Source of the DNA: Ophelia neglecta
Lineage: Eukaryota
DNA length: 64,000 nt
Direction: 5' to 3'
NCBI GenBank assembly: GCA_965285935.1
Contig: OZ260663.1
Location: 59,086,001-59,150,000, forward strand
The notes beneath the pieces were generated by a model. That model had not been told where the DNA came from, did no database searches, and saw nothing but the letters and a program-made list of their open reading frames with translations. Shown here piece after piece: positions 1,647-59,973 of this stretch. Within the stretch, counting starts at the first letter, position 1, and each line of letters starts with the position of its first letter. The position numbers and the translations under genes were made by a program.

Positions 1647-4600
1647 GTGAGTACAGCTTTCATCTTTTTACTTGATATTTCTTATTTAGTATGACCCAGA
1701 ACTCTTTACCAAAGCATGAAGCCAGCATCAGGCCACTCTATTTTGCCACAGATGTCATGTATTTTAACCCTGTAAATATGGCCAGTAATTAAGAAAAGGG
1801 CTCTAGGGGCAGGCTTAGAATCTCCCTGGGGTGCAGAAATAACTAGCCTCACTGTAGCCCCAGCCTTAAGCCCTGAACATATTACATTAATTACTATACT
1901 AGAATGTGCACATGTTATGTACCAGCAGATAGTGCTATACCTGTATGTAGGAGAGTAAACAAGATAGTCAACTTAGCAGCTGTTCAAATATTTGCAAATC
2001 ACTGATACTAGGAAAACACAAAACCCTTTGTAGTGTAATCAAACTAGCCAAGCTACTAGCGAATATATATAGTGATAATCTTGTGATCTGTGGTTGGTCC
2101 CCTATCCAGGTACATCTGTTTTGATGCAGGGAACACAAAAGCTAAATGGTTTCCTTGTACATAGTTAACTGGTAGCTGAGTTAGTTTTATTTCTGGTTTA
2201 TTGTGTACATGTACAGATACACCTCCAGGTATAGTGGTTAAAAGATTCCAGATGTTAAAGGGCTAGTCATCTGGCTAGGCTTGCTGAGGCAAAATTAGAA
2301 GAATTTATAAACTCCCACTACTGGGTTTTCTACCACTATAGAAGCACTCTTCTAGAAGGTAATCTTACCTATCCCAAACCTTAATCACATTTGCATCTGA
2401 GCTCCCTTGGTCTGACCTTTCCCTCACAGTACCTGGTGAAGGAAACTTTCTGCTTGTAAATTGCCCTGTAGCAGCTTACCTTATTAACAAGCCGTTGGGG
2501 AGCTGTGATGGCAGGGGCAATAGCACACTGCTGGAGGCTCCCCTTTCTGTGCTGCCAGCGGAGTCTGGGTAGGCAAGATATCCAGCGGATAGCAGTGGGT
2601 CTGGCCGCTCTCTCCATATAAACAGACTGAGACCTTGTAGTCATATCCCACATTGTGTCAATATGGGTCTCTGCCCTCCCTGCCCCCTCTCATGTGGGGT
2701 ACATGCCATACCCCTGGCAACCTGCTGTGGAGACGCACCCCATACCTCCTCTGGCCAGATAGATCATGGTACAACATGTATTATACCTGAATGGGAAAAA
2801 ACCATGAAATGCTAATATTATAGGGGCTCAACTTTAGCCCTTATGTCCATTGCCACACTAGTCTCTAGTCAGGAGAGGGAATATGTCTCATACAGTAGTC
2901 CTTATAATGACTTCAGACAAGGTCAACACCTTTTTTTGTGTGCAGGTATCTCCTGCATTAACTGTAAATAAAATGTGCTGGCTTCACTCTTTGGATTAAA
3001 TAGTTCTCTGTGTGTATGTATATTTTGTTGTTTTACCAAGTGGTACCTTATCTGAAATTTATGTGCTTGCAACATGTAGAAATTCTTGTTAAATACAGAA
3101 TCCCTGTTTGCTTTTGAATGATAAATGGCTTACAGCCCACAGCTGACATATAATTCTGTTTATAGAGGACTTCGGTAAAGAAAATAGGAGAAATGGGAAT
3201 TATATTTGCTCGGTGGGAAGAAATATATAATTTGCCTGCAATAAAAAACTTGTCTGCAGCGAGCTGGTTCTGCTCACTATGACGTTAACCGTTAACTCAA
3301 GTAGAGAAAAATACAAAAGCATTCCAACTGCAATGTGGTATTTCTTATTCAGCCAATACACAATTATTCACCAAGTGGCTCTGAATGCTTAGTCAAAAAC
3401 AACACAGTGTAGTAACTAAATGTGCAGAATTATCTTGCCATATAAAGTGTGTATAAAGTACCTGTATATAAAATGTACACACAAGTATGGAAGTGGTTAT
3501 TAATATGCTATACCAACACTTCATGCCAGAAATCAATTTTTTGGCATCAACAACATATTTATGAATCAGCTCATTAATATTTTCGTGCAGTTAGTTGGTT
3601 TATGATGATTGAGATATACCATTCTCATTGTCACCGTTATAGCGAATGAGAGAGTGCTGCAGGCAATGAAACAATTGGCAGGTCTGTGTAGGTGATACAG
3701 TCACTTAGCCCCTGCTAGACTCCTGTTACAGGCCCTTCAGCTCTGTGTTTAGGTAGCTCACCACATCATGGCTGAAGCCCACTGCATTATATATATTATT
3801 AATATCACCACCATGACACCTGTCAGTTTTATTTAGCTCAACTATAAATGCACAAAATTAAACTCTTTGAATACATTATAAACGGAATTTAAACATGTCT
3901 AGTTCAATACATGGACATGATTTGGCATGATTTTTGTCTGTTATCAAATTTGACCTATATGTACACCAATAAAATTAAGATAGCATATACCGGTTGGAAG
4001 TATATTATCAGCTGTTATGTAGAGTGTAGTTTCCTATACATCCATGGTGGAACTTTTATATTAAAATGTTTAAGAACATAAACAAGGGATTTGCAGCACC
4101 ATGGGTTATACTTGATCGTTCTGGGATGTGTTACTGAAAAAAATCTTCAATACAGACACAAGTATATAAGCTCCTAGGTGACATAACATAACATCTATGA
4201 GATATTGTAATTCAATGATAAATATCTGTCAGTCGTGCGTTTTCCCACGCAGCTGCCAGCAGCCAGGTAGATTTGTACTGGTTAGCATTCTAAGAGGTGT
4301 ATGAGAATTTCAGGCAGTCTTGGCAGGGATATCACCTTTACTTTGATCACCCATTGATTGATGGAATGCTGGGCTGAGCCACCCTTTCTCAGCCCATGTA
4401 GCCACCCCAATCTGTCTGACTATCTTTTCCAGAGTGCCTTTGGAAAGACTGGAATCATGAATTAAAGATGTTTAAAATGCTTGCCAAGTTACCAGTATGC
4501 GGCCTAGATCAGCAACAGGGCAGTATTTTTTCTAACAAACATGTTAAGAGAAGACATTTTTTTGTGTTGATATACAATCTATTTTGCACATGGACATAGT

Positions 4601-7600: not shown

Positions 7601-9857
7601 TTTTATCTGCTTTTCTCTAGTGAGCAGTTGGTAGGGAGTGTCTTGGAAGGCACAACAGTTGGTTTTTTAAAGTTGGTGAACCTTTCCTGGAAGTGGTAGC
7701 TATCTATCTGCATTATAAGCTAGCCCTTTGGCTACTGCCATGAAGATGATGGGAGATCCTAGGGCCAAAGATGTGTGTATTTGAGGCAAAGACACTGGCA
7801 GATTGGCTGGCTGCCTGCTCTGATCCCTGCCGAAGGCATAACAGAACCAAGAGGCAGTGCCTCTGTTATCACAGTTATTAGAAGCTGTAGCCTCTTGCAG
7901 AGGTTATCTTTATAGCTATTTATGTGTGTGGCTCCACTCTGTCCTTGCTTTCACAATATTAAATGCCTACTTGTCCATGACCCACTTTACCAGGCATTGG
8001 CCTGTTTAATAAGGCTTGTGTAGATTTGGAGCATATCCCAACCAGATAAAATGTTATACATTTTAATTTTTATTTGCCCATTGCCATTCCTTAGATGTAC
8101 AAGTGGCTACCGTAATTCACCTAAAGAAGACTAATGAACTTGTGTGCTAAACTGGGGGATGCATTATGTTTTGGAAAAAACAAACTCCCTTAATAATAAA
8201 TTTATCTAAAAATAAAAAATAAAACAGATATGGCCAGATATATGCATTCTTTAGTAGGTATGTGTCTCCTATTAAACCATTTACAGTAGAGTCAATATAG
8301 CATTGTCGGATTGAAGGTGCCCACGATTTACAGCTCATGGTAAACTTCTGAAGCCTCAAAGAATGGCTTCTATTGATTTTGTTCATCTTATGAAGTCTGG
8401 GTCATTGTGCCAGATATCTCAAACAATGAACCAGTGGAGTGCTGGCCATCACTCTCGTACAACCTACAAGCCAGTCAAGTGCTGACAATGAAGCACGGGG
8501 GTTTGGATAATAGTTTGGACAGTTCACTGTATTTTGACTGAAGTTGGTTCCTCCTTCATTCCTACCAACAATCAGGTCTGACAGGGATAGAAACAGGTAG
8601 ATTACAGCCTGGTCTGACTACAGCAGTTGTCTTCTGATCAGTTTTTATAATTCCCTGACTCACATCTGAATCTTGACATGCATGTCTGTAGATTCGGTAG
8701 ATGAATTGAAATGCTATCTTGTTACATGGCCCTTGTACAGTGTTGGGTAGATGGGAGCTGTCTGGTAGATTTTATGAAATGGCAAGAGCATGAGAACAAA
8801 TACCTGGTTGTTATAGTATTTTGTATCTTGTTACATGTACATGTACATTTATGTCTAGTATAAGCATGTAAAATGTCAGCACTAAAACATTGTGTTTTTG
8901 TGCTGGTGAGTGATGCTCTCTGCAGACCTTGTAGCATAATGAGGTTAGCAGTTTTGGCATGAGATCCAAATTAAAGGAGGTGTTGGAATATATAGCCAAC
9001 TGAATAATGAATGAACTTGTACAAATTCCACTACAGAGTGAGGCAGTGAGTGGCTGAATTGTTCATGCCAGGCTACCATTCATCAATGTAAGCCTGACTG
9101 CAGATTAGATTAATACACCACAAAATGTCATGTTGGAGAATTTTAAGGAAAACTTCAGCCCTACATATAAGAATTAAGATCCGCTAAGATAGCCCTGGGA
9201 ACTGGGCAAGGATACCAAACATGCTGTCCCATAGATCTTTATAAATGTATGATAACCCGGCAAGATATCCATTGTGATCCTTATTTATGATCCAGAATGG
9301 TTAAAGCACATTACCCTTGCTCTGCTGCTGAGTTATTGGTATTTTAGACCTAATTTTCTCCTGCTTACTGCAGGTGAATAGTCAGTGTTATTAATGCAAG
9401 TGGCGTAAGAGGCTGAGAAATTATGAAAATGGTTAGCCAAGAGACGAGGGAGTAAATTGACTGGAGTTGCCATTTTCTGCATATAAATTACCACACTTAA
9501 TATGGCACAATTTGGGGTAACATGGAGACAGTCATCAAACCAAATGAATGGCTCTTTTTAGAATTAAATGAGTGCCCGAAATCGCTGTTTGCTCCATGAG
9601 CACTTAAGTACTCAATATCCTGCACTTTTCTATCCAGTTTAAAAAATGTGCATTTACTTTTCCTCATTAAATTGTATTATAGTGGTTAGGACCTTTGTAG
9701 ATAGATGTAATATGCATAAAAGTGTAAATTTCGATCAGGATATTGTTTTGGTTACTACTTGATCCACTGTGATTTTGTAGGAATCCTATGTTATTTCTCA
9801 TTTTAGACAATTCCATTCTTCCTGTGGTCAGCTTTGGTTATTGAATCTACTGTGAGT

Positions 9858-10446
9858 GTGTTATTGGTCCTCTTAGCAGGGCCATATTACTGGTCCTTTC
9901 AGCAGGGCTGTATCAATGGTCCTCTCAGCAGGGCTCTATCAATGGCCCTCTCAGCAGGGCCATGTTACTGGTCCTTTCAGCAGGGCTGTGATACTGGTCC
10001 TCTCAGCAGGGCCATGTTACTGGTCCTCTCAGCAGGGCCATGTTACTGGTCCTTTCAGCAGGGCTGTGATACTGGTCCTCTCAGCAAGGCTGTGTTACTG
10101 GTCCTTTCAGCAGGGCTGTATCAATGGTCCTCTCAGCAGGGCTCTATCAATGGCCCTCTCAGCAGGGCCATGTTACTGGTCCTTTCAGCAGGGCTGTGAT
10201 ACTGGTCCTCTCAGCAGGGCCATGTTACTGGTCCTCTCAGCAGGGCCATGTTACTGGTCTTCTCAGCAGGGCTGTGTTACTGGTCCTTTCAGCAGGGCTG
10301 TGTTACTGGTCCTCTCAGCAGGGCCATGTTACTGGTCCTTTCAGCAGGGCTGTGATACTGGTCCTCTCTCGAAGGCTGTGTTACTGGTCCTTTCAGCAGG
10401 GCTGTATCAATGGTCCTCTCAGCAGGGCTGTGTTGCTGGCCCTCTA
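9858..10446. repeat. 26-bp minisatellite, about 22 copies (GGGCCATGTTACTGGTCCTYTCAGCA)
   Basis: Directly visible tandem array; produces the 26-aa periodic ORFs at 9834-10677. Confidence 0.95.
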
Positions 10447-11454
10447 GGGAAGGCTGAGTCACACCCTGAGTCAGCCCATTGTCCTTGTAGACCCACAGGG
10501 CATGGTGCCCCTAATTCAAGTCATTGCACAGCACCGATAAGCCTCCATCAAGCAATTTCTTACCTAATAAACAATTATACCACTTATGTTACTGCCAGGC
10601 TCATATGTGATTATTTATTTATTTTTGAACTGTCCAAAGGTGAGTTCTCTCATCTATATTTCCTAATTGATTATTAAGGGAGAACAGCTTTAAAGTTTCA
10701 CAGTATCTAATGGCATATTAGTAGTTCTGCTGTTGGTGTGGCTAGTGTTGGTGTCCTCCTTACTGCATGGGCTGTTGTGTAAGTCAAACTAAGTGACTTT
10801 CAACTTGATAAGGGTGTTCAAGGGGACAATGTCTACAGTCTCTTCTTGTTGTTTTGCTTCATCATTGATTGAACAACTAACTAGTGAGGGCTTCATGTGT
10901 AACTGTACAATAATATGTACCAGGAATATTGCAAAATCTTTCACCCCTTTTTTCTAATGTCAACTAATGTGCCAATAAATATCTTATTGTTTTTAATCAT
11001 TATTTCATTGGCTTTGTTAACAGAGAAGTACTGAATGAATGCTAGACTTTAAATATTATCACCTTAATTTCAGCAGTAATACCACTTCCCTTGATGTAAA
11101 ATTCACACTTGCTCTCGGGTGGCCAATAATTACACCACCAGATTCTATCAGCCAAAACAAGCTGGAGTCAAAGGGGTATTTGTTGAACTGGCTTTGCACA
11201 TTTTTACTGTCCAGGAGTCATGTAGTGGTCATTTGGGCAGACAGCCCAAATGTTTAACTTACACAGAGAAGCTTTTTATTACTTGCAACCAAGTCCAGTG
11301 GATAAGCAGTTGACAATTACCAATTATGTGTGGCTTAGATAAAATGACTTTTAAGTTATTAAGGATTCTTTTAATGTCTCTGACAATGCTGCCTGGTACT
11401 AGAATCTAAGTCCTGAATTCTTAGGTGAGTGCTTTAATGACTGCCACTGACTTG

Positions 11455-21200: not shown

Positions 21201-22186
21201 ACAAACACCAGTGCAGAGAGCTTCTGGATAATACACCTTCATGTTGCAAGCACATTTTTATGTTAAAATGTTTTAGACTCATTGTTTGTTTTTGCCATGT
21301 TGTCTTGTGGAAAATAATACTGTTAACTGGAATTGGCTCTTCATTGTATGTTCTCTTTCTCTTCTTTAAACATTTTGTACAATATTAGGCAAAACTCTTC
21401 TGCTAAAATAAACTGCTAGTGTTATCTGAAACTGAAATGTAGTTTTGTACTGGTGAAGGGACAAAGGGTTTAGTGTCAAACTTTACCAGTACTGCTCATA
21501 CTGCATCAGTTCTTAAAGCATATAATCATATCATATAATAGAAAACCCTATCCCCAATGGTATTAAAGATCTTGTTGTAAAATATTTCGGTTCAAAAATC
21601 CTTTAACCTTTTGTCCTGAATGTTAGTGTAAGGTGCTTAAAAATATGACATTGTTCTGTTGTAGAAATGCACTTAGACTAGATCTTTACTTGCCATCCTA
21701 TCTTTGTCTCTGGTTGAGGTACCACTAACAAAGCTCAGATACACTCGATTCATCTCAATGATATTCTAACATTCTGGCCTACTTAGCTTTTCAAAAACTA
21801 AGGCTATGCTATATTTTTTCATTTCCTGTGCAATATGTTCTATTTATACTGGGGTATATTCTGGTATAAACACAGTAAATGCTGGATAGATTGAATTTTG
21901 AGCTTTGTCCTGCATGCCAGTAGGGTCCAGAAAGCAGGCTAAACAACAAAAATCATATTGTGACCTTTGTGGAACAATTAGTTAAATGGAACTCTTTTGA
22001 CCCCACTACTAAGATTTCTGGTTAATCTTCTTTTTCACATTCAGAAAATGAAAGCAAAATAATTTTTTTTAAATGTATGGATAATGGACAAAATGAATTT
22101 AAGTGTGTATGCCTGTCTTCCTGCTTATTTGTACAATATATGGCCCACTTGATGATGACTAACCTAACCTATTTGTCCCTGTACAG

Positions 22187-22345
22187 ATCCATCTCCGGCA
22201 CTGGCTGCTAACTCTGACCATGGGGCTGTGGGGGGTGTAGGGGGTCCAGAGGCCCCTGGGGCCGCTGACCAGCTAGCAGCTGGGGCTGCCACTCCTGGGG
22301 CCTCGGGCAACTTCACCCATTTCCGCTACATACAATACCTTACAC
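22187..22345 (+). CDS. Lar: Probable (alternative) exon encoding a 53-aa Gly/Ala/Pro-rich segment before Ig1: DPSPALAANSDHGAVGGVGGPEAPGAADQLAAGAATPGASGNFTHFRYIQYLT
   Basis: Branch point GACTAAC (22157-22163), acceptor tttgtccctgtacag|, donor CAC|GTAAGT; 159 nt, phase 1-1, no stop; GC-rich island in an AT-rich intron. Confidence 0.75.
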
Positions 22346-25474: not shown

Positions 25475-28319
25475 GTGAGCAATCTGATGAACCCAAATAT
25501 GACATTTAACTGATCTCGCTAGAACTTGCAAGAAAAGTCAAAAGACCCCTTTTGTAGAGATTACTGCTAACTAGCAGTGTTGTATTTAGGGCAGGCTAGC
25601 AACTACAGTATTGAATGATGCTATGTATATCATGGGCTGCTGATGAAAGGAATTTAAAATAAATTATAGTTTCATTTGAGATAAGTTGTCTTATTGTTCA
25701 ATTGACATTAGTATTTTGATTTGATTGCCCATCCTTTCTCCTGTGGAGATAAAAACTCAACCAGAATGAAGTACAGCTATAAAAGAGCTCCTTTTCGATG
25801 GTGACTTATTTCCCCCTCTGGACCAAGAAGTAATAATGAATAAAAGCACCATCCTACTGGGGGATGTTTTATATGGCTTGGCAGCCACCCAGACCCAGAC
25901 GTGGGCCAGACGTAAGCCAGGCGTACACCTAGAGCATTACCAATTCTTGAATATAATTCGTTTAATTGTTTTACAAGCATACCTAATTTACCAAGTGAAA
26001 GTTTTCCAATGGGATAGGCTGGCAGAACAAACTTTTAAAATAATAAAGGTAGAAAGAAGTGTTTGTGTAAGTTTAACCAGTAACTTCATTAGTGATTTAG
26101 AGAAGACGATTGATGTTATGTGTGGAGCTCTTCATGTAAGACATTTCAATTTTTACTCTTTATTTTTGTGCCACTTTTCTGTATTCTTGCCTAATGATGG
26201 AGCTGAACATAAGGTTGTAGATACTGTATATTTACCCTTTGATGGAGCATTTTTCCAGGCAAGTGAATCGGTTGTAAGGCCTGCTGCCGTAATTGTGGAA
26301 AGGTGATGCCTGGCTTATAATGCCTATTAGAAGACGAAGACGGTAGTCATGGCTGCAGCCATTGGGTGGTGGAATTGAGAGACTGCCAGTATGGCATTAA
26401 GACGTGATGGCCAGTGTGGGTGTGACAGGTGTGACTCCTGTAAGATGATGCCATGCCATCAATGCTGCTGGCAGAAAATTTAATACAGCATGAGAGTACT
26501 ACAGTTTCTACAATAATTATTGTAGCTTTTTGCAGCATACCAACTTATTATGTGATAATTTCTGCTGATGCATGGTGAAAAAAAGCTTAAATTTAGATTA
26601 ATATATTCATGGTAATCATTTTGGCCATGACAGTATCCATCAAATACGTAAGAATAGATATGTAGGAAATGTGTATTGAATTGGCCCATTGCATGAAGAC
26701 ACTAATCAGTTGAGTTATGTCTGGTATACTGTGCCCATTACTGATGTTAGGACCAAGAAGTGACTTGGTCTGCTGCCAGTATCTGCTGGGAAGGTAGTAG
26801 TGGCAGCATGTGCTGAGGAGGCAGAGCTGACCAGGTGTGGCCACATATCATCTGATCATGTAGTTCTTCATTAATTCCTCTGGGTACTCATTCAATCATG
26901 TCTTAGTAGCTTGTGTTAGGAGAGGGATATCCCAGCCCAGACCTGCTTCCCTTTGCCAGAAAATACTGTTTATATTTTGCCATTCTTGTTATGGTGCTCC
27001 TGTGTTATAAAATGCGCTTTGTTTGGTTTTCTTGTCCTCTGCATCTGCTTTAATCAAATATTTGTATCCAGTTTTCTTTGGTTACATGTAGCTACCAGTG
27101 AATGCTGATCAATTCTGAATGATAAGGTTTCCTTCTGGGTCAGCCAGTTCACCCCAACCAACTCCTCACACATGGTGTGCATAAATTGATTGTCAGAACC
27201 ATTTAATAATAAATAGATGTTGTAGGGAAGCAACAAGCTCTTAGAGTTTAATTAATGCATCGAGGGCCTTGTGGGTCTTGGCGACTCTCAAGTTCCGATC
27301 TTCATTCTTTAAATTGGTGGAAATCCACTACATGCAAATTTGTAATTTACCACCTCGAGTTTGAAGGTTACATGAGAAGGATGGCTCATGGTGGCAGTAT
27401 GATTGGGCTGGAGTGCAGGGACACTGAGCTGAACGTGTGACCTCGCTCAGTGTTTCACCCATTCCTTGCTGTAAGCAGTTATAACCTTTTTATTCTTAAA
27501 TACTAAGTGCATTACACTGTTTGGAAAGGACTGTTTATTATAAAACAAATGAAAAATCTGAGCCCTGGCAGACCCCTGTTATCTAAAAGTGGCCAACCAG
27601 AAGAGAGGTCAATCAGACCAAGTTGATCTATGGCATCTTGTGATAGTCTGAATGCTTCAATATACTCAGTGGTCAATGGTCTGGGGAGTGGCTTTGTCCC
27701 ATGGCCTGTCATCTGGCCCTTTGACTCTCCCCTATCTTTATTGTCTGGAGGTCAGGACCCCTGGGCCTGTTGATTGTGTCTCCAATCTGCCGCCATGTGT
27801 GGAACATAAGACAGTTGACCGGCCAAACTGATGTGTCATCACCCATTATTGACATGGCTGGTTGTGATTGGCCTGATTCACCTCTTTCAAGGGAGCAGAT
27901 CCTTGCAAGGAGCACTTTGCTAAGAGATGCTATGTAGATGTTGCATTGAGTTTTCCAGCACTGTAAAAACTGAAATGGTGAATGCAGGTGGCCAGCCTCT
28001 AGCGCTGCCCCCTAATACTGTTAAAAGTCAGAACTCAGTTGGAAATAGAAAGGGCCATTTTACATATAGTTCTTACTATAGTTTGTGGCACAAAAAGATA
28101 TTTAGAAACAATATTTTATATTCTAAATATTTATTTTTTTGGCATTTGTTCAAAAAGTGGCTATGTCTTACTGGAATTACATTTCTACAGTACAAGAAGC
28201 AATGTATCAAGCTGATGTAATATGTATGAAAGCATTGTCACCGTTCAAGCAGTAAACAAGTGGCTTATAACAGCTACAATATGTCTGAGCATGCGTCTTG
28301 GTGAGCCAGACCAGGTTCT

Positions 28320-40870: not shown

Positions 40871-41454
40871 GTAATGTTAACTGCTAGTGTCAACCTCACC
40901 GAGAAAAATAAATCATCTCTCCCTCTAAATATGTTATGTCTAACACAATTGTAGATTCAGTTCTTTTAATGCTTCAAAAACAACTGATAAAATAATAAGA
41001 TTTTTTCTCTCCAAACTGTGTATAATTTGTTACTGTTAGGGTGTAATGTTTATCTACTATGTGGGTGGGTCTCCAGTACTGGTGGACAGATTGGGTCAGA
41101 TGAGGGTAGGCCTGTTCAAAAGATAATACATGTATAAAAGGAAATGATGGATATTCCAAAATTTGAGCATTGATTCAAAAACATTACAAAGCAGTTTGAT
41201 AGATAAGATCATAACAAATCTTCAGGTGTAATCAGATTTTCTTAATTTCTCTCCTCATTATTTGACTCCCCCCAGTATTGTGTTTTTACTCACTGATATC
41301 TACATTTTATTTTGTTAATTAAGACTGTTCTAATTAAACAAATTTCTTACTGCACTATGGAGTGTGTTTGAATAAGGGATTTTTTTCATATCAGTGTACA
41401 TTAATATTGATGTTTGTTGTTATTAGGTTAAGATACATCTAGTTTTTGTTACAG

Positions 41455-41565
41455 GAGCCCTTCAGATCCGACACAGCATGGAGTCTGATGAAGGAAAGTA
41501 TGAATGTGTTGCTGAGAACAGTGCTGGCGTCGCCTACTCGTACGGAGCCAACTTATATGTCCGAG
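41455..41565 (+). CDS. Lar: LAR RPTP exon, Ig2 C-terminal half ([37 protein letters not shown])
   Basis: Hallmark GALQI..SxESDxGKYECVAxNSAG..ANLYVR; ttgttacag| and CGAG|GTGGGT; 111 nt, phase 1-1. Confidence 0.96.
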
Positions 41566-43825
41566 GTGGGTAGTGCATGGCAGCATCTTTACCTATTCTA
41601 CTCATATATACAAGTACACATTTGCACTTTCTGATCCAATTTAACACTGACTTAATAAATAACTAAGTACACTATAGAGCTTTACCTGAACCAGTAACTT
41701 GTGCACTGATGCTTATATTCTAAACTTGAATTTATAAATAAGAAAGTATAAGTAAGTTCCAAGAATGATTGGATCATAGTTGAAGACAGGGAAAAGTCTG
41801 CAATTTGACATGCAGGAGAGACAGCATTGCACTTAAAAGGCATCTACACTTTACCATTTAAAATGACTTTAGAAGGACAGACTAACCGCATGCCATGCCT
41901 CGTTTTACGTAGAATGGCAATTGGTTTTATTTCTAAATGTAGTCCCTCACAGTTTTATTTTGAGGAAACATGTTTGTCTTTCTAAATTCATTTGTAAAGG
42001 TTACCTAGCTATCAATAACACCAATGATTGTAGACTTTTTCCTGTCGTATTGTTTTTTATTTTATATTTAGTGTTGTTATTATTTGGGTGTGAGATTTTC
42101 AAATCATCTGATTTGTAAAGTTCTGAACACGAATATTAAGCAAACAAATTCCTTTTGTTCTAAAGTTTCACAGCTATTTCTTGTAGAAAGATGCCACCAA
42201 TATATAACCCCTTGATATTTTATCAGCAACCTGCTACAGGAGTAGTAGACTGTTACAACATGAGAGCATTTTACCCTAAAAAGGAGGTTTTAGGCACTTG
42301 TTAGTGCAAATGAATTTCTATGAATCCACAGAGTATGGTTGTTGAATGGACTGAAGGATACTTGCCAGTGCACCAAATGTTTGCATGTGATTTTTCCAGC
42401 AAACAAGTTGCCCAGCTTAGTCAGTTACCTCAGAATATTATGCTTTGGCGTTGCTTTTGTCTTGGCTGCCGTGAATTTATCTCCAAATGAAATGAGTTGT
42501 GTATGTGCACTGCTGGCTCGATTAAGTTTTCATGGAAAACTGATTGAAAAGGCACTTGTGCTCTGCTTATGCTTGCAAAGATGTAATTGGATTCCCTTGA
42601 AAGGAACTCGACTCTGCTTCTTAGGGATGAGTTTCATGTCACTTACTGTATCTTGAGGCTTTTCCTTGACTGTATTAAATTCTCTGTGTTGGTTTTATTC
42701 GAGCAACCTGTACTTGGCTTTTTAAGTAAATTTTGATAGCTCACCCAAAAGTGGTTTTAGAAATAAATTATAATGCACCAAATGTCGAAGCATGTACAGT
42801 GGAGATGCTTGATTGATTATTGTGCTCAGACTAGTCCTGTGGCATTATTTGCCTTTTTGTTAATATTAATGCACATACATACAAATGTATATGTATATAC
42901 ACTAGATGGTTTATTTGTAACAAGTGTAGCCTTCTGGTTGAAAAATAATCATATTTGGCTCTGCATGAGACCAAGCAGTTTAATAGTGCTCAATGGTAAC
43001 AAAACTGGGGCATTTTCATTGAGCAAATACATGCTTGTTAAACTCACAACCTGCTTTATGGAAATCTTCTGACAACAATTCAGTTAGGAAATATTCCCCC
43101 AAAAAGAGAGTAATATCAGTAGGAGATGGATAGCCTTTGTACTTCAGCTGTTAATGTGTATTTATTCCATCATTGAAACTTACAGTATACAAAAAGCATG
43201 GCTTGAAGCTGAGAAACGACGTGTCTGGCAATCATGGTTTTAACTTTATTGGCAATTCTGCTTCATTAAGGTGTAAAAAATAAGCTTGCTTTTATTAGTT
43301 GATTTAGTGTCCATCCACAATCTACCTTTAGTAATAAATGAAGTGAAAGGAGTGCCGAACGATTGATTCATTATTGTGATTATTAAAGCAAAGATAGGAA
43401 CAAAAAAAGAGAGCAAAGTGGAAATGTGACACACACAAAAAACCAGATATTACGGTGGAGTTGGCATGCTGTGCTTTCAGTTTGTTTTATGTCATTAGAT
43501 AAGTTTCAATCCAGTTTAGTGTTAGGGCCTGTCAACACTTGTTGTTTAAACTTGTCAGATGTTGATTGTGTGTTGCTTGCTTCTCTGGTCTAACCATATA
43601 CAGGCATAAGATAATCACAAAACTGTCTACGCTGCATTAAACATAACATCAGGCATCAATGACTCAACAGCCAGGAATTAGGAGAAGACAAAACTGCAGG
43701 AAGTTAATAAGAGTGCCGGTCCTCTGTAAGGGCTAGTAATATTGCACAGGGCTAGCGCTAGCCGACACCAATTTCTAAGATGCTTTTTTCTGAGACGCTA
43801 TGTTTCTAACTCCACTTTTCCTTAG

Positions 43826-43906
43826 TGCCGTCCACTCTGTCACCGCCACCAACCACCACCAAAACGTCCTCGTTCAGGAGAAACCATCCTAATATCACTG
43901 GTTCAG
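43826..43906 (+). CDS. Lar: Candidate cassette exon in the Ig2-Ig3 linker (VPSTLSPPPTTTKTSSFRRNHPNITGS)
   Basis: Branch point TTCTAAC 43804-43810, pyrimidine tract ccacttttccttag|, donor TCAG|GTATCC; 81 nt, phase 1-1, open frame; ACTAAC cluster downstream. Confidence 0.65.
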
Positions 43907-44557
43907 GTATCCATCCACGTCTTGAGAATGTCGCCCGAATGCTAACTCTACTAACACACTAACCCCACTGTGTGTAGTTGATATACTGGTCGGTTTACTG
44001 AGGTTTGGTACGTCCCCTAGGTGGGTGTGTGACACACTAGGTGAATGTCTCCCTCCTACTAATATGGAACTCACATGTTTTCCTAAGAAGTTCTCCTGAA
44101 TGATCAGTGTGGATTCTTGTAATTGTAGTTTGAAATCAGTTACATTATTAAAAGTCTAAACAGTATTCAGTTAATTTTATAATATATTTTCTATTGCAAT
44201 TTCAATAGTCTTTTGATTTATTTTTGAGAACACTTTACAAGAACTTGATTCAATATATTACTTAATATTTGATTGATTGCTAGCCAGTAAATTGTTTATC
44301 AACTGGATCTATATGTTGATAGATTTATAGGACATGGGATGTTATTAATTATAATGACACTCATTTATATGATAAATAAATTTGCTCAATGCAAAATGAT
44401 AAGGATTATATAGGAATGGACCATATCTGTACTTGTCTGAAGATGAAAAATCAGAAATTGTTGTCTTTTTGCTGCCTAAACATTTCATCTTTGTGCTGTA
44501 TGTTTCTTAAAATGGTTATAGCCTATAGAAATTTCAGGTTAAATATCACCCATTTCC

Positions 44558-44708
44558 TGTATTCACACACTGTAATATCACAGAAAAGACTGTGATATTC
44601 TGCATTCACCCCCTGTAATATCATGTAATATCACAGAGAAGACTGTGATATTCTGTATTCACCCCCAGTAATATCATGTAATATCACAGAGGAGACTGTG
44701 ATATTCTG
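44558..44708. repeat. 53-bp tandem repeat x3, each unit with a perfect 10-bp hairpin AATATCACAG-N6-CTGTGATATT
   Basis: Hairpins at 44574-44599, 44627-44652 and 44680-44705. Confidence 0.9.
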
Positions 44709-45011
44709 TTGGATGTAATACCTTCCTGGTAGTAAACTCTCCAGCCTGCTGCATGTCTGATAACATAGACCTTTGATAGTTGGACAGGATGAAGATGTCT
44801 TTTCCATGTCTGGTCTTACGCTGCATCTTGATACATGTTTTTACTCTGTTTGGTCACTGCTAAATGTGTGCAGGGAATGCAAAATCAGACCAACAGAGTA
44901 AACGTTGAATTCTGTAATACTTTGATAGAAAATAATTAATTTGAAAGGTAAACATACATGAAGTAATGAATAAATTGTGTTTGAACTATGTATGTCTACT
45001 TCTATCTCCAG

Positions 45012-45281
45012 TGAGAAGAGTTCCACCTCACTTCTCCATCCCACCGGAGAGCGCTGAGGTGATGCCAGGGGGCGCTGTTAATCTGACCTGCGTAGCAGTC
45101 GGCTCCCCTATGCCTTATGTCAAGTGGAGGCTGGGCGCCGTGGAGCTCACTCCCGAGGACAGCATCCCCATTGGCAAAAACGTCCTGATGTTAACAGACA
45201 TCCGGGAGTCGGCCAACTACACCTGTGTGGCAGCATCGGACCTCGGCAACATAGAGGCCATCGCGCAAGTCAAAGTCAAAG
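45012..45281 (+). CDS. Lar: LAR RPTP exon, Ig domain 3 ([39 protein letters not shown]...[24 protein letters not shown])
   Basis: Closely matches the LAR-family Ig3 signature VRRVPPxFSIPP/[17 protein letters not shown]; ctccag| and AAAG|GTAGTT; 270 nt. Confidence 0.98.
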
Positions 45282-49363: not shown

Positions 49364-50804
49364 GTAAGTGTATAGATGAAAGACTTCTAATTACTAGTGG
49401 CTTTGCTAGGCATTGTGCGCTTGCCTAACATTGTGTGGAGTTTTTATATTCACATGTATATGGTAAGTGTAAACTCCGTGGAGAAATACAGGATGTGGCA
49501 GACTTAATTTTAATTGTTGATAAAATAGGCTTTTACTAACAAGTGAATTGTGTTCTGTGATCATCAATGCTGTTAGTATATGATGTGTGTGAAAGGCACT
49601 ACTAGAGCATCTAAATATTTTAGTCCTACCACTGGTGGAACAGATTTTGTCATCACTTGGGTGGAGGGTGTTAGGTAGGAGTGCAGATTTGCCGTTTTTT
49701 CACCTATTGTCATCTTAAAATAGCAGGCAAACTACGACTTCAAGTAGTACAAGTACATAGGACATCCTGGATACCTTTTTTTTTCCTGTGACCTTAAACT
49801 ACGAAATTCTCCCCAGATTTTAATGAGAGCTGATGCAATTTCTTCTTCCTCACTGTTTTTATCATATACATTACCAGACTGGCATATGGGTGGAAGTTTA
49901 GACCTCTGACCAATCTCAATTCTGATCAGCAGGCCATTGATAAGTTATAGCATTTGCCTATGAGCTATCTAAAGGGCTATTCTCAGATAAATATCTTTAT
50001 TACAAACACCAAAAGTCTCAATATAACTGTTATTAGAGACAATTATAAGTCACCCTAGAGTCTGATTTTCTATTTTTCTCATAATGCCATTAATTCCTGA
50101 TCATTGGTCCTCTGCTAGCTGTTACCATACATTAGATAGCCAAGACAGTAAATGAATTATTATTCCACTCATCAGGTGCCTTGATTGTATAAGATAGTCA
50201 GCGTGAAGGTAGTGAATGCTCGTATAGCCTGAGGGTAGATCAGAATATGAATTTACAGAAACAATAATATCACTGCAATTCTTAATAAAACAAAGGTCTG
50301 GTCACTTGTGAAGTTAAAACCTGCAATCAATGTGTGCTGTGATTTGGCAGTTCAGGACATTATTCCTGTGGGCAATTTCTAAGCGAGAAGTGTATGTAGT
50401 CAGAGAGGCCAAAATGGAATTAAGTTTTCTTGTTATGTTGTATGACTGTGGTTGTTCCCTTTGCTTGCGACTAGTATAATTGTAACCACTGTGATGTTGA
50501 CCGTGACAATGGCTGCTAACATTTATGTGTAAAATTGTGCAGGAAGCTACTTGAAAATGAGTTATAAAAAATTCAGTTTTTACAATGTTTTGGAAATTCA
50601 TAATAAGTTTTCTTATAATAAAATATTGTTATTATACTTACCTCATGGGATTAGGATATTCCATCTCTCCATATATATGTATTTTGTATAATTATGTACA
50701 TGAACATGAACATTGTTGCAAATTAATACACATTGACTAACTTTCTGAAGACTTCCAATAACATTGGTTACATGAGTCTGTCCTATCTAAAACATCTGCT
50801 TGCT

Positions 50805-51385
50805 AGACTGTCTGTCAGTAATGTGCTTCTGTCAGTCTTATATCAAGGCTTGCTGTCTTGTCAGTGCCTCACTGTCTGTCAGTGCCTCACTGCCTGTCAG
50901 TGCCTGCTGTCTGTCAGTGCCTCACTGTCTGTCAGTGCCTCACTGCCTGTCAGTGCCTCACTGTCTGTCAGTGCCTCACTGCCTGTCAGTGCCTCACTGC
51001 CTGTCAGTGCCTCACTGTCTGTCAGTGCCTCACTGTGTGTCAGTGCCTTGCTGTCTGTCAGTGCTGTGCAGTCTGTCATTCACAGTGCTGCCTTGTTAGT
51101 GATGTGCTGTCTGCCAGTGATGTGCTGTCTGTCAGTGATGTGCTGCCTTGTCAGTGCTGTGCTGTCTGTCAGCACCATGCTGCCTTGTCAGTGATGTGCT
51201 GCATTGCCAGTTTTGTGCTGTCTGTCAGTGCTGTGCTGTCTGTCAGTGCTGTGCAGTCTGTTAGCACTTTGCTGCCTTGTCAGTGATGTGCTGCATTGCC
51301 AGTGATGTGCTGTCTGTCAGAACTGTGCTGTCTGTCAGTGTTATGCTGTCTTATCAGTACTGTACTGTCTGTCACTGTCCCAGAC
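50805..51385. repeat. 18-bp minisatellite (GTCAGTGCCTCACTGTCT, grading to GTCAGTGATGTGCTGTCT)
   Basis: Directly visible; explains the [18 protein letters not shown] periodic ORFs. Its last 88 nt (51298-51385) recur at 52109-52196. Confidence 0.95.
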
Positions 51386-52235
51386 AAAAAACTGCCACTT
51401 TCTTGCTATTAACTTTGTATTTTTTTTACCAGACTTTTGGTCATGTTGAAGTTTCATGGCATGCTCATATTGCCTGGTGGCTTATCAGACTCGACCTCAT
51501 AAATCACCCTTTCTTTCTTTGGTTTGTCAAGTCTCTTACCTGTCATCACATTTATGCATTTTGTCTCACAAAGGCTGAACCTAAGAGTTTGCCAAATGTC
51601 ATGTTGCATCCCTTCAAATCATTGTTCAATTGCCTGTTGCCATTTATGCCTGCAAACTGTTTCAAAACTTTGAGTACAACATTTAGTAAGCATTAGAATG
51701 TCAATATAAGCTCCCATCTGACAAACTATTTAGACTTGTGCATTTTTTAAGACTCAACATTTATGTTTTGAATCCAATTATAAACTATATATTTAGTAGT
51801 TTTCTTTTTATCAATAGTCCCTTGTGATTTCTTCTGCACTGATCTCAGGTATAAAGCTGACCTGAACAAACTGCAGTGTATGGGCATCTCTCAGCTCTTA
51901 CAGTAGTGTGCTTAATCTTTAATCTACACCTAATGCATCAAAGAGGTTAAGATGATTTAGGTCTGAACTAATAACACATTTCCTAGCTACACATCTCACT
52001 CATGCATCTTTGCAAAAAAAAAGTTATAACTTGGTTATATACAAATTTTGGGAGAGATGACACCTTTCAAGTTGGGGCCAAAGGAACAAAAATATGCTGC
52101 CAACTTTTGCCAGTGATGTGCTGTCAGTCAGAACTGTGCTGTCTGTCAGTGTTGTGCTGTCTTATCAGTACTGTACTGTCTGTCACTGTCCCAGACTCTG
52201 TAGTGAGGTGGAAACACAACAAAGCAACATAACCA

Positions 52236-53371
52236 CCCCGTGTGCTAGAAAAAACTGGGCTAAGTATTTTCTCAGGCAAAACGATTCCATTGCCATTGGC
52301 TGAGCAAATTCTTGAACTTAAGCTTAAAACTTAAGTCAAAGAAAATGAGTTGAGGGTGTTCTGAAAGATTCTTAGACTTAGTTTTTACTTAAATCTTGCT
52401 CAGACTTAAGCAAGGTGTATAGGTCACTTAAGTCTGGCAGATCATGCTCAAATATGGAGGCACAACATAGACGCTTGAGGAGGCTGTTGGTTTATTTGTT
52501 GAACCACCCATACCAGGGGTATTTAGAGACTTATCTAACCCCCCTTGAGCGTTATGATGCTGAACAGATAAGACAAACAAATATGCTGGCACCACTTGTT
52601 CTTCTATTTTTATAAAATCATTAATCTTATTTTCATACCTGTTTACTGCCTCAGTAATTTTGTCCCATGCCTTGTCCTTCCAGTCTATTAGCAAGCCCGA
52701 AGAATCTCCCTAAAATTAAGGTTACTAAATATAACCCTAGCTAGCCACTCCTGTTTAATTTATGACCTGAGAGTCTGTGAGTAATAAGACATGACCTTAT
52801 AAATCTGTACTGGTCCTGTACATGGATGGGATTAGTGCTGTCAATCCTATGTGTGAGGCCCAGCCTCTAAGAGAGCCACAGATGACAGGTGCTTTGGGTA
52901 CTGATATGTATAAAATATAACAGGAATTGTATGTTTCAAAAAAAATGTTAGACTTTTAACTGAACCAATTAAAAAGTCATCAAAGGCACAGATATAACAC
53001 AAAATCATTTACCTTTACTGTAAATACATTTTAAACGGAGCTTTGACCTGACATGTGCTAGGTCCAGTCAAATTTCCTAATGGTGGTTTAATTATCACCA
53101 CAGGTAATTAGCCTGTGCCATAAACCTGCTGTCCAAGTGCTAGGCATAGAATTGTAGAAAATCTACTTTTTATCTACTGCCCATGCGCAGCCCGGAAGCA
53201 TGTATACATTTTGTATCTAGCGATCAATCCTTGCTTAACTTTGATTTATACTTAAACTTTGCTTAGTTTGGACTTGAGAAGAATCTAGCACCCCAATCTT
53301 GAGAAATTCTTAGCTAAGAATTTTCTTAGTTCATACTTAGACTTAAGTTAAGCAAAATCCAGCACACAAGG
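52236..53371. mobile_element. Decayed, internally deleted PIF/Harbinger-type DNA transposon
   Basis: Imperfect inverted ends (CCCCGTGTGCTAG 52236 / CCAGCACACAAGG 53359-53371) with CTTAAG/CTTAG-rich subterminal inverted repeats; + strand frameshifted GVFRDLSNP/LERYDAEQIRQ (52513-52576) resembling a Harbinger transposase N-terminus; - strand KDKAWDKITEAVN (52641-52679) resembling the Myb/SANT partner protein. Family call is from motif recognition, not a search. Confidence 0.6.
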
Positions 53372-56707: not shown

Positions 56708-59008
56708 GTAAGTACCATACGAGCTTCTCCTTAGTCCTTCGCTTCACGTTTGTCTAGCGTGTTCGCCTCTCGTCTGGTGATAACGCTCTCTATACTACTC
56801 TGTGTGTTGCTAGAGGCACCGGTTGCCAGGCAACCACTGGTTCTGTTTTGTCTTTCTCGTAACTCGTAGCCTTCTCCATGCCTTGATATATGACTCGATG
56901 AGTTGCCACATATATGTCAGGCCATCTATCCTACAATGACAGCTACTTACTAGTTTCAAAGTGTTTTCTCCTGTCTTGCTTAGTTTCATTTCATTTGGTT
57001 GTCAAAGGGGAGTGCAATAAGTGACTATGCTCTGTATCTCAAGTTTTGAAATATTTTGCTGGCAGTATTTTTTACCTGTTTTTGTGACTCTTAGGAAGAG
57101 AATGCGATATCTGTCTACAGCTCATAGACCTACAAATTTTTGCCCAGCCCCAATTGTAATATTTCAAAACTTAGTGGGATACCAGTCATGCAGATAAAGT
57201 TCACATGTTTAGCCTTTGATTTCTTATTACCACTTTTGATTGTTAGACAACAATGGCTGAGTACATCTAGTCACGAGTACTCTAGCAGTGTTTGGGTTTA
57301 GCACTGAGCACTGATGTCCTGAACCAATTATAAATGTTATCAATCACATTCATTACAAAGTTGATCAGGTTTGGTGGTGAGAGGCCACTGTCAGGTGAGT
57401 GTAGGGATACGAACAACTTCCACATAATGTAGTGGTATAGTTTTTCATATTTTACTCCACTTTATGCCTAAACCATATGTAAATCAATATGACAAAAAAT
57501 TTAGCAAGTTCATTTTCCAGAGACTCCGTTAAAATGGGTTTATGATAGTAAATATTTGCTATACAATGATGACTGTTCCGAAAACTTGGACAAAGAGGGT
57601 GGCACATATCTATTGTGCAGTGTGTGCATTATTCGGCACAGGAAGCAGCTGTATTCAACTCCTTTTGACACAGGATGTCAACTAGAAGCTGACATTGATT
57701 GTGAAGAAGCAATATACACAGCAGAGGCATTCAGTCACGTACTATCAATACACTTCATGCACATTTCTGGGTGCAATTTATATAGATTCGAGCCAGTGTA
57801 AAAAGTGAATTGCAGGTCTCTCTTTCTAGAAAAAATGAAGGAATGTTCATTTAGGAGACTGCTTTTAGGGCAGGCAATGATTAGCATCGTCCCCAGGTCC
57901 AATATGTTAAACGGGTTGTCGTTACTTCAAGTCTGAGGATTTCGCTGTCCACTCTAGTACCCAGCCTGCATTCAAACCACCTTCCATGCCACTCAATCAT
58001 GTCTTTCACCTCGTCTTTGCCCTGCGGGCAACTTGTTGTCTTAGTCCTTGAAGTTAACTTGATACTTGCATGTCAGCAGCCAAGGCACAAGATACACCTG
58101 TCTCTTATCGATTCATGCTAAGAAATGTTTCCAACATAATCTGTCTGTATTCTTCATGGACTAGAAACAAAAATAACTTCAGCCAAGGAAGGTTTCATTT
58201 TACATTTAAGGCTGGAGAGCAAAGTAGTGCCTATCAACTATATCTGCAATGTATTTCTAAATCTAATCCATTGTTCAAGTATTGTTTTGTACATAACTGC
58301 ATTATTATAAAAAAAACATTTAGCTATGCATAATATATAATATAAAGGACAGATTATGTAGGAAAACCAGTCTGTCGAATGTTATACCATTTTATATTAC
58401 AGTACAGTATACGTAGTCATTTCCATGACAGTATTTTGGTTCAAATTACATATTTCAGTCCACTCTCTCTCCTTGGTGATTACTCTGTGCACAGTGTGAG
58501 AGTGAACCTGTCAATTATTGTAGACTGATTTACAGTCATCTTTTGTTTTTGTGAATTACTTTAATTTTGCACTTTGGTCAGCTCTATAGCTGGCAGTGTC
58601 TTTTATTATTCACATTTAAAGTACTATAACTGAAACCATGAAATGATTTCTTGTATACATTTGTTCAATTAAATTTGTCCATATGTTCCCATAAAGAATC
58701 TTCATTATTTTTGTTCATAGCATAATGGCTGCCTACTTAAACAAATTTATAAACCTTGACTGGGGGAAGGTTTCAAAATATTTGAGCTACTTGTAGCCAT
58801 ATGACATGTAAATTTGAGCTATATGCCCTGGGATGAGAAGTCATTTCATGGTTCTTTACAAGGTCACTACAGATCTCTACACTGTGGTTGTGACCACTTG
58901 CATGTGAGTTGAGTTTCATCACTCTGTGGATGACGACCTGTACCTGTGTTTTGTTAAAGCTTTAACATTTGCGTTTCTTTCTATTTCACCTCTCCCCCGC
59001 CCATCCAG

Positions 59009-59317
59009 TCCCCAGTGCCCCGCCCCAGAATGTGCGTGGGGTGGCCCTAGACTCTACCAGCATCGAGGTAAGCTGGGAGCCCCCACCCAAGGCCGCCCAG
59101 AATGGTGTCATCTCTGGCTATAAGCTGCTCTACACCGACCAGGCCAGCAACCAGGGTCCTGAGGAGGCCACTGCGCTCACCGTAGGCGCCACTGAGCTTA
59201 CACTCGCCATACGCGAGCTGCAAAAGTGGACGCCCTACAAGATCTGGGTGTCTGCATTCACGCAGGTCGGGGATGGGCCTCTCAGTGATGTCATCGTCGT
59301 CCAGACAGACGAGGACG
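59009..59317 (+). CDS. Lar: LAR RPTP exon, FN3 repeat 4 (VPSAPPQNVRGVALDSTSIEVSWEPP...VGDGPLSDVIVVQTDED)
   Basis: ccatccag| and GACG|GTATGT; 309 nt; LxKWTxY and VGxGPxS..TDED signatures of LAR FN3-4. Confidence 0.97.
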
Positions 59318-59417: not shown

Positions 59418-59973
59418 ACTAACACCCAACGCAAAAGGGAATGTGTTGAGTTTTGTAAAGCTTTTGTCTCAAATTCATTGGCTACCAAGGAGAATCTGCC
59501 AGTCACCATAAAATTGTATACTTATATGGTTTGGGTTGCAAAAAAACATCCCTTTTAGATTTCCTTGTTATTTCCTACTTTTCAAATAATGTTTATGGTG
59601 GCTTGAAAGCTTGGATACTCCACTCATTTAATGAGGTTTTGGTTGAGTTTTGGTGTGAGGACAGAGTTTTGTTTCCCACAGACTTGTACATATACTGCAA
59701 CGGCTGAATGTGGGATCGATAAAGACTGTGTGATTACTACTAACAACACTACTAACTTTCCATTCAACCCCTTCCCTCTGCTAACCTTCCTGCACCATGA
59801 CTGCTTCAGACATGCATACTACTACCTTTATGTGCTATCATCCTTGCTTTTCTATGGTAATTACTAATGCTAGAATTTCACCCGTGTTACTACTAACCTG
59901 AGTAGTAAGGCGCCACACCACCTGGCTCACTGGGAATGTCCACTCACTTTTCACCTGCTGTTCAAATACTAAC
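59418..59973 (+). promoter_or_regulatory. Cluster of ACTAAY (Quaking/STAR-family or SF1-type) RNA motifs downstream of the FN3-4 exon
   Basis: ACTAAC at 59418, 59739, 59751, 59892 and 59968, ACTAAT at 59863, GCTAAC at 59780. Confidence 0.5.

What the first reader, a model, noticed from the sequence alone, without database searches (positions are those of the whole stretch)
43804..43963. 81-nt Ser/Thr/Pro-rich cassette exon at the vertebrate mini-exon B position, followed by Quaking-type motifs
Seen: TTCTAAC...ccttag|exon 43826-43906|GTATCC inserts VPSTLSPPPTTTKTSSFRRNHPNITGS between ANLYVR and VRRVPP. A weaker in-frame donor at 43901 gives 75 nt. GCTAAC/ACTAAC/ACTAAC follow at 43941, 43950 and 43958, and ACTAAT at 44058. 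Established: vertebrate meB (4 aa, ELRE) inserts at this same junction and changes Ig2-Ig3 spacing and ligand binding; QKI/HOW binding ACUAAY downstream of an exon generally promotes inclusion. Inference: a 27-aa mucin-like spacer (possible O-glycosylation, NIT sequon, basic FRR) acts as a much longer meB, possibly under muscle or glial STAR-protein control.
Basis: partly seen in the sequence, partly recalled or inferred. Interest (0 to 1): 0.75.

Follow-up and report, generated by a model that had tools for sequence, protein, structure and literature searches.

The report
Worm LAR receptor hinge cassette exon
An 81-base stretch in an intron of a worm LAR nerve-adhesion receptor gene has exon-like counterparts in the same intron of related genes and is likely an optional exon that would lengthen the hinge between the second and third Ig domains and remove a predicted furin cut site, at the spot where vertebrates use their 4-residue mini-exon B.

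Summary
43826-43906 is an AG/GT-bounded, phase-1, stop-free 81-nt segment in the Ig2-Ig3 intron of a LAR-family phosphatase gene, most likely annelid. It is probably a real exon: 16 of 80 related loci carry a phase-1 exon in the same intron ending Gly-[Ser/Ala/Thr] (87, 42 or 39 nt). The 87-nt one shares the last 10 bases, the donor and downstream motifs (0 of 300 shuffles score as well); the 39-nt ones evolve as coding. A fish locus holds the 12-nt meB in this intron and phase. The skip junction reads RVRR, a furin-like site that meB disrupts in vertebrates; this exon removes it too. No RNA evidence of inclusion was found. Not supported: the 75-nt donor and conservation of the NIT sequon or FRR. 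A Ser/Thr/Pro-rich body is shared with one locus only. STAR motifs are real and partly conserved, but absent after the 39-nt exons; 19 of 26 complete introns show no such exon. Verdict: a positional equivalent of meB with no sequence homology to it; new variant of a known kind.

The parts
41455..41565 (+). Upstream exon, second half of Ig2; ends phase 1 after ...LYVR
   Evidence: tblastn 79-83% to the annelid-type LAR proteins P0007-P0009
43804..43825 (+). Acceptor of the cassette exon: branch-point-like TTCTAAC, pyrimidine tract, AG
   Evidence: score 2.62, like the Ig3 acceptor at 2.59; branch use inferred
43826..43906 (+). 81-nt frame-preserving cassette exon at the meB position, 27 aa, S/T/P-rich, ending Thr-Gly-Ser
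   Evidence: counterparts in L004 3144-3230, L066 6770-6811, L077 2465-2506, L028 4689-4727 and others
43907..43912 (+). 5' splice site CAG|GTATCC; CAG|GTA is identical in all 10 exon copies compared
43922..43930 (+). TTGAGAATG, same offset in L004; GAGATG in L066 and L077; contains GAAUG, a secondary Rbfox motif in mammals
   Evidence: motif role from 10.1101/840272 passages; function here inferred
43941..43963 (+). GCTAAC/ACTAAC/ACTAAC cluster, STAR (QKI/HOW)-type or branch-point-type
   Evidence: one CTAAC at +31 to +36 in L066 and L077
44043..44063 (+). Distal GAATG...ACTAAT pair, matched by a GAATG...ACTAAT pair in L004 (3392-3414)
45012..45281 (+). Downstream exon, Ig3; begins V-R-R, completing RVRR when the cassette is skipped

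Best explanation
The segment 43826-43906 is likely an optional, frame-preserving exon of a LAR receptor phosphatase gene that, when included, would insert 27 Ser/Thr/Pro-rich residues into the Ig2-Ig3 hinge and replace the RVRR furin-type motif of the skipped form, so it is predicted to work like a long mini-exon B. Shown by sequence: position, phase, open frame, loss of R-x-R/K-R on inclusion, and counterparts of 87, 42 and 39 nt in the same intron of related loci that keep the 3' end (Gly-Ser/Ala/Thr, CAG|GTA) while length and 5' part vary. Inferred: (1) it is spliced in, in some tissues or stages; (2) skipping is common, since all annelid-type proteins and both spliced contigs I retrieved that span the junction skip it; (3) a STAR protein on the CUAAC cluster, perhaps with Rbfox on GAAUG, promotes the donor; (4) the included form has a longer, probably O-glycosylated hinge that resists cutting at this site, so Ig1-Ig2 stays attached and sits differently against Ig3, which changes ligand choice. 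My odds: real exon 0.88; alternative rather than constitutive 0.9 given that; STAR control 0.5; cleavage switch matters in vivo 0.35.
For: L004: same intron, 87-nt phase-1 open exon behind a pyrimidine-rich acceptor, identical 13-mer across the donor plus TTGAGAATG at the same offset; local DNA score 57 against shuffle mean 33.5, sd 3.9, 0 of 300 reaching it; best of the tiles across the window's intron. L066 vs L077: a 118-nt block (E 4.5e-25) is the only strong match between the two introns, spans a gap-free 42-nt exon with 3 synonymous and 5 mild amino-acid codon changes, and ends at CTAAC. 39-nt exon: 10 loci, 8 distinct sequences, no indels, AG and GTAA invariant, pairwise codon differences 104 synonymous to 62 non-synonymous in the predicted frame against 39/125 and 12/149 in the others; it is one of only two blocks shared by all six introns compared. 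A profile from L004+L066+L077 ranks window 43893-43955 first in 64 kb, E 0.0036. RefSeq models insert at this junction in Lineus (3 of 8 isoforms, 20 aa) and Haliotis rufescens (8 aa). RVRR in the skip junction of the window, L004, L028, L066, and no R-x-K/R-R after inclusion; Coles 2014 report cleavage at RVRR, its predicted disruption by meB, and a hinge at Ig2-Ig3 (PMC4239663 passages).
Against: No transcript or protein with this exon or its annelid-type counterparts among the stored proteins checked. Peptide similarity to L004 is weak (score 37; 22 of 300 shuffles reach it), a shared 13-mer anywhere in the two introns arises in 118 of 500 shuffles, and an AT-rich tile scores 54 against 57. 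L004, L066 and L028 were found with window-derived queries, so the profile test is partly circular; with L066+L077 alone the window hit is first but E 1.8, and a window+L004 profile does not find the 39- or 42-nt exons. Homology of the 39/42-nt exons to the 81-nt exon therefore rests on position, phase and three terminal residues. 19 of 26 complete introns show no such exon, 14 of them with RVRR. The Lineus insert carries its own RLKR, which does not fit a general cleavage-protection role. No CTAAY after the 39-nt exons.
Confidence: 0.7

Rival explanations
1. The acceptor is used but the 43907 donor is read through, giving a terminal exon (secreted Ig1-Ig2 form ending at TAA 43960-43962) or, with the stronger donor at 44021, a stop-containing poison exon.
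For: The frame stays open for 18 codons past the donor; L004 keeps the same 15-nt spacing to TTGAGAATG, which reads L/I-E-N in both; 44021 is the best-scoring donor in the intron (4.53 vs 1.43).
Against: L066 and L077 differ by frame-breaking indels right after the donor; in the 39-nt group conservation and alignment break directly after GTAA; CAG|GTA is kept in all 10 copies.
Confidence: 0.1
2. The CTAAC cluster is a branch point for a second small exon starting at 43978 (30 or 63 nt in frame), tandem or mutually exclusive with the 81-nt exon, and not a STAR enhancer.
For: AG at 43976-43977 lies 15-23 nt after the ACTAAC adenines; in-frame donors at 44008 and 44041 score 1.93 and 2.56; QKI and branch-point motifs look alike (PMC9786888 passages).
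Against: That acceptor scores -2.39; in L066/L077 the conserved block stops at CTAAC with no conserved AG after it.
Confidence: 0.08
3. A chance or decayed pseudo-exon: AG..GT pairs in frame are common and the matches elsewhere are coincidence or unrelated exons.
For: 257 such pairs in this intron, with modest scores; weak peptide similarity; no inclusion transcript found; absent from 19 of 26 complete introns.
Against: L004 match sits exactly on the donor named in advance, in the same phase, with its own acceptor and similar composition; coding-type evolution of the 39-nt exon.
Confidence: 0.07
4. The exon is constitutive in this species, a fixed lengthening of the hinge.
For: Its splice-site scores are close to those of the Ig3 exon (acceptor 2.62 vs 2.59, donor 1.43 vs 1.63).
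Against: Spliced contigs L010 and L065 and proteins P0007, P0008, P0009, P0017, P0055 all skip this position; L065 groups with the loci that carry the 42-nt exon.
Confidence: 0.05

Closest known systems
Mini-exon B (meB; ELRE in PTPRD/PTPRS, DQRE in PTPRF) of vertebrate type IIa (LAR) RPTPs
   Same: Same intron and phase; lengthens the Ig2-Ig3 hinge and breaks the RVRR motif (PMC4239663 and PMC8711739 passages).
   Different: 81 nt and 27 aa against 12 nt and 4 aa; no sequence likeness; S/T/P-rich; length varies 39-87 nt among relatives; inclusion and ligand effects not shown.
RefSeq-predicted inserts at the same junction in Lineus longissimus LAR (isoforms X1, X3, X4; 20 aa) and Haliotis rufescens LAR (X9; 8 aa)
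   Same: Optional insert between ...LYV(R/K) and (V/I)RRVPP in a spiralian LAR.
   Different: No evident sequence likeness to the window's exon; the Lineus insert is basic and holds RLKR; they are gene models, and I could not see their read support.
QKI-activated cassette exons (e.g. Capzb exon 9; weak 5' splice site with downstream ACUAAY)
   Same: Non-consensus donor with ACUAAC and a second site 8 nt apart, 35-57 nt downstream.
   Different: Known examples read are mammalian; motif conservation here is partial and binding is untested.

Membership tests
LAR / type IIa RPTP (host gene) | Three Ig domains followed by FNIII repeats, closest to PTPRD/S/F and Lar | tested here: met
LAR / type IIa RPTP (host gene) | Transmembrane segment and tandem D1/D2 phosphatase domains | not testable with these tools
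   The window ends within the FNIII exons; no genome is held
Mini-exon B | Lies in the phase-1 intron between Ig2 and Ig3 and keeps the frame | tested here: met
   12-nt meB in fish locus L062
Mini-exon B | 12 nt, four residues ELRE/DQRE | tested here: not met
   81 nt, unrelated sequence
Mini-exon B | Disrupts the RVRR furin-like motif of the skipped form | tested here: met
   (sequence only); PMC4239663 passages
Mini-exon B | Alternative inclusion shown in RNA | not testable with these tools
   No RNA run of this organism was available to lay
Mini-exon B | Changes binding of Ig-domain ligands | not testable with these tools
   Ligands of the annelid receptor are unknown to me; needs binding assays
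QKI/STAR-activated exon | ACUAAY core plus UAAY half site within 20 nt, in the downstream intron | tested here: met
   ACTAAC 43950 and 43958, GCTAAC 43941; definition from PMC9786888 passages
QKI/STAR-activated exon | Motif conserved beside the homologous exon | tested here: inconclusive
   Proximal CTAAC in L066 and L077; distal ACTAAT only in L004; none in 10 loci with the 39-nt exon
QKI/STAR-activated exon | Weak 5' splice site | tested here: inconclusive
   1.43 against 5.75 and 1.63 for the flanking donors under a crude matrix
QKI/STAR-activated exon | Binding and dependence on the protein | not testable with these tools
   Needs CLIP, knockdown or minigene
Mucin-like spacer | More than half Ser/Thr/Pro (criterion recalled) | tested here: met
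   16 of 27 here, 15 of 29 in L004; not true of the 39- and 42-nt versions
Mucin-like spacer | O-glycosylated in vivo | not testable with these tools
   No predictor or proteomics on hand; the NIT sequon is not kept in L004

The most novel reading that the evidence does not exclude
The Ig2-Ig3 hinge of LAR has been an alternatively spliced switch since the protostome-deuterostome ancestor. Vertebrates, annelids, nemerteans and molluscs fill the same intron with different inserts, and the oldest function is to toggle furin cutting at RVRR (shedding of the proteoglycan-binding Ig1-Ig2 head) and hinge length, not to form a specific ligand contact. In annelids the exon keeps its 3' end and donor, stretches at its 5' side into a mucin-like stalk, is driven by STAR/Rbfox elements, and was kept by two of four paralogue groups after gene duplication.
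Probability: 0.25. Interest if true: 0.68.

Novelty: new variant of a known kind. Interest (0 to 1): 0.5.

Why it matters
The meA/meB splice code of LAR receptors is described for vertebrate synapses. My five literature searches on this point (open-access library only) listed no paper on an invertebrate exon at the meB site. A conserved annelid exon there, with database inserts in a nemertean and an abalone, suggests the site is an old or repeatedly used switch. It gives a natural series of hinge inserts (4, 8, 13, 14, 20, 27, 29 aa) for asking whether length, cleavage or sequence is what meB changes. It is an unannotated isoform of a known gene, not a new system.

Tried and rejected
No whole genome held. 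Sequencing-run search: no RNA holder listed; three runs of one sample. Laying them gave contigs only, 16 substitutions in 6.1 kb and none in 43507-44559, too few to show constraint; they may be this DNA's source. Search of 50%-identity representatives was swamped by multi-Ig proteins; the 14 LAR-like matches printed (11 proteins) showed no insert. RNA folding of 43780-44000 is unremarkable (z 0.37). Rfam: nothing at gathering score in six loci; one chance-level hit in the window's intron. Earlier-findings look-ups returned nothing. blastn of the window's intron against all 80 loci found no significant block; the L004 match came from tblastn (E 4.4) and was then tested. One search had a pattern error, fixed. 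My end coordinate for the L037 intron was 13 nt short, so its junction is wrong; read by eye it lacks RVRR. Rejected: the 75-nt donor; conserved N-glycosylation; FRR as a furin site (no R-x-x-R in the insert); a recursive AG|GT site (short intron, in-frame acceptor upstream in every copy, coding signature). No structure prediction was run, so the shape of the included hinge is open.

Full report
Observation. The segment 43826-43906 lies in the 3446-nt intron between the exon ending Ig2 (41455-41565) and the Ig3 exon (45012-45281); both junctions are phase 1 and the segment is open in that frame. Under a crude splice-site matrix of my own it is first of 257 in-frame, stop-free AG..GT pairs in the intron (4.05; next 3.42), and the GT at 43901 scores -4.89. 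The CTAAC triple after the donor has Poisson P about 8e-5; two other triples exist on the + strand of the window.

Host gene. Ig3 matches PTPRD/PTPRS structures. tblastn places Ig1, Ig2 (two exons), Ig3 and six FNIII repeats between 25174 and 63228. Over 776 exon-coded residues identity is 70.1% to Capitella, 68.9% to Lineus, 50-61% to molluscs and about 49% to vertebrates. Ig3 has WRLGA as in Capitella, where Lineus has WRKGA and Haliotis WREGA. So the animal is a spiralian, most likely an annelid.

Position. Of 120 homologues, 19 vertebrate ones carry ELRE between LYVR and VRRVPP. One of five fish loci examined (L062) holds the 12-nt meB with AG/GT in the same intron and phase. Reviews and a structural paper place meB there as a flexible linker (PMC8711739 passages; PMC4239663 passages).

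Comparative evidence. A scan of metagenome contigs gave 80 loci with the Ig3 exon; 26 hold the whole intron, 2 are spliced (L010, L065, both skipping), the rest hold part. (a) L004 (Ig3 92% identical) has an 87-nt phase-1 open exon at 3144-3230, 15 of 29 residues S/T/P, ending in the same ten bases, with the same donor and TTGAGAATG at the same offset. Its DNA score against the window is 57; 0 of 300 shuffles reach it (mean 33.5, sd 3.9). Against this: peptide similarity is reached by 22 of 300 shuffles, a shared 13-mer somewhere in the two introns by 118 of 500, and an AT-rich tile scores 54. What makes the match persuasive is that it falls on the donor named in advance. (b) L066, L067, L068, L074 and L077 have a 42-nt exon ending SGA or SGS; L066 and L077 share one strong block (118 nt, E 4.5e-25) that covers it and ends at ACTAAC/GCTAAC. 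(c) Ten loci (8 distinct sequences) have a 39-nt exon, DSR[VI]P[VA]LQxQxG[AT], with invariant AG and GTAA and no indels; codon differences are 104 synonymous to 62 non-synonymous in the predicted frame, 39/125 and 12/149 in the others. These counts are pairwise and not independent. L029 and L030 of this group hold 3.1 and 3.5 kb upstream without it; the exon lies 2.3-4.3 kb upstream in the others, so it may be off their ends. In all, 16 of 80 loci carry an exon, 7 of 26 complete introns. The other 19 (14 of one group, 4 of another, and L037) show no exon ending Gly-Ser/Ala/Thr that recurs, and no block shared by two or more of ten group members against four reference introns; a very short microexon would be missed. 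Four groups occur in one assembly (L011, L032, L068, L072) and separate on the Ig3 tree (weak backbone), so they are probably paralogues, two with and two without the exon. Profiles link the window to L004+L066+L077 (first hit, E 0.0036) but only weakly to L066+L077 alone (first hit, E 1.8), and all were found with window-derived queries. I regard L004 as a likely orthologous exon and the 39/42-nt exons as probable, not proven, homologues.

Other phyla. RefSeq models insert 20 residues here in 3 of 8 Lineus isoforms and 8 residues in one Haliotis rufescens isoform; 8 Liolophura and 4 full-length Gigantopelta isoforms do not. No stored protein contains the window's exon or its annelid-type counterparts. 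Inclusion in RNA is therefore not shown.

Mechanism. The skipped junction reads R-V-R-R in the window and in 21 of 26 complete introns (L037 read by eye). Coles et al. 2014 describe Ig2-Ig3 as a hinge, report frequent cleavage of RPTP-sigma Ig1-3 at this furin-like motif during crystallisation, expect meB to disrupt it, and show that meB lowers TrkC binding (PMC4239663 passages). With the exon included, the residue four before the cut is Ser, Ala or Thr and no R-x-K/R-R remains in the window, L004, L028 or L066. I infer that inclusion lengthens the hinge by 27 residues and protects it from this cut. The Lineus insert, with its own RLKR, and the 14 exon-less introns with RVRR, show this is not universal. 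For regulation, QKI binds ACUAAY with a UAAY half site within 20 nt and favours inclusion from the downstream intron (PMC9786888 passages; its Figure 2 legend states the reverse of its text), especially at weak donors (PMC12424749 passages). GAAUG is a secondary Rbfox motif (10.1101/840272 passages). A GAATG/GAGATG followed within 20 nt by CTAAY occurs within 200 nt of the donor in the window (three times), L004, L066 and L077; six more such pairs lie elsewhere on the window's + strand. The 39-nt exons lack CTAAY within 300 nt. STAR control is plausible for this exon, about even odds, and the tissue is unknown.

Comparison and novelty. It works like meB by position, frame and effect on RVRR, but fails the length and sequence tests, so it is not meB itself. 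Searches for invertebrate meB-site exons listed no such paper; I saw only listings for most, passages for six papers (also PMC12598525), no supplements, and the library lacks most subscription journals, including much of the older leech HmLAR work (recalled). Supplementary tables of cross-species splicing surveys could list such an exon. I file it as a new variant of a known kind, interest 0.5.

Noticed in passing
window 22187-22345: A second likely cassette exon, 159 nt, phase 1, before Ig1, with CTAAC branch-like motifs at 22159/22164 and a GTAAGT donor. Its end (NFTHFRYIQYL) matches a 14-aa optional insert in P0253 and P0254 and inserts in Haliotis and Liolophura isoforms. Same pattern as the main finding: conserved 3' end, lengthened low-complexity 5' part.
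   Followed up: partly
window 59008-59316 and 59739-59973: The fourth FNIII exon is skipped in P0008, P0009 and in Liolophura, Gigantopelta and Limulus isoforms; a CTAAC triple (59740, 59752, 59781) and three more ACTAAY lie 420-650 nt downstream. An acceptor-like site near 59681 could mark a further small exon.
   Followed up: no
L001 516-651, L004 3889-4019, window 44705-44734: A second conserved block in the same intron (76% over 136 nt, E 2.5e-20), with only a 30-nt echo in the window (E 0.013). No obvious exon, no Rfam match.
   Followed up: partly
L028 6900-6990 and 17 other loci of the same group: A non-coding block 0.85-1.95 kb upstream of Ig3, found only in this intron of this group, with a weak 10-pair hairpin around an invariant TGATT(AG)AGAT[AG]GCTCTC loop; little covariation.
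   Followed up: partly
P0232, P0235 (Lineus): A 28-residue optional insert inside Ig2 at the position of the window's intron 40873-41454, near vertebrate meA; I did not look for a counterpart in the window.
   Followed up: no
L006, L007, L012, L013, L019, L021, L023, L024, L025, L027: The Ig2-Ig3 intron starts with a GC donor in these loci of the exon-less group.
   Followed up: no
window 44555-44710, 9807-10677, 50727-52300: Local tandem repeats (about 55-nt unit in the Ig2-Ig3 intron; longer arrays giving repetitive ORFs elsewhere), seen.
   Followed up: no
window 25770-26306 (- strand): 178-aa stop-to-stop ORF in the long Ig1-Ig2 intron, possibly a transposon relic; not searched.
   Followed up: no
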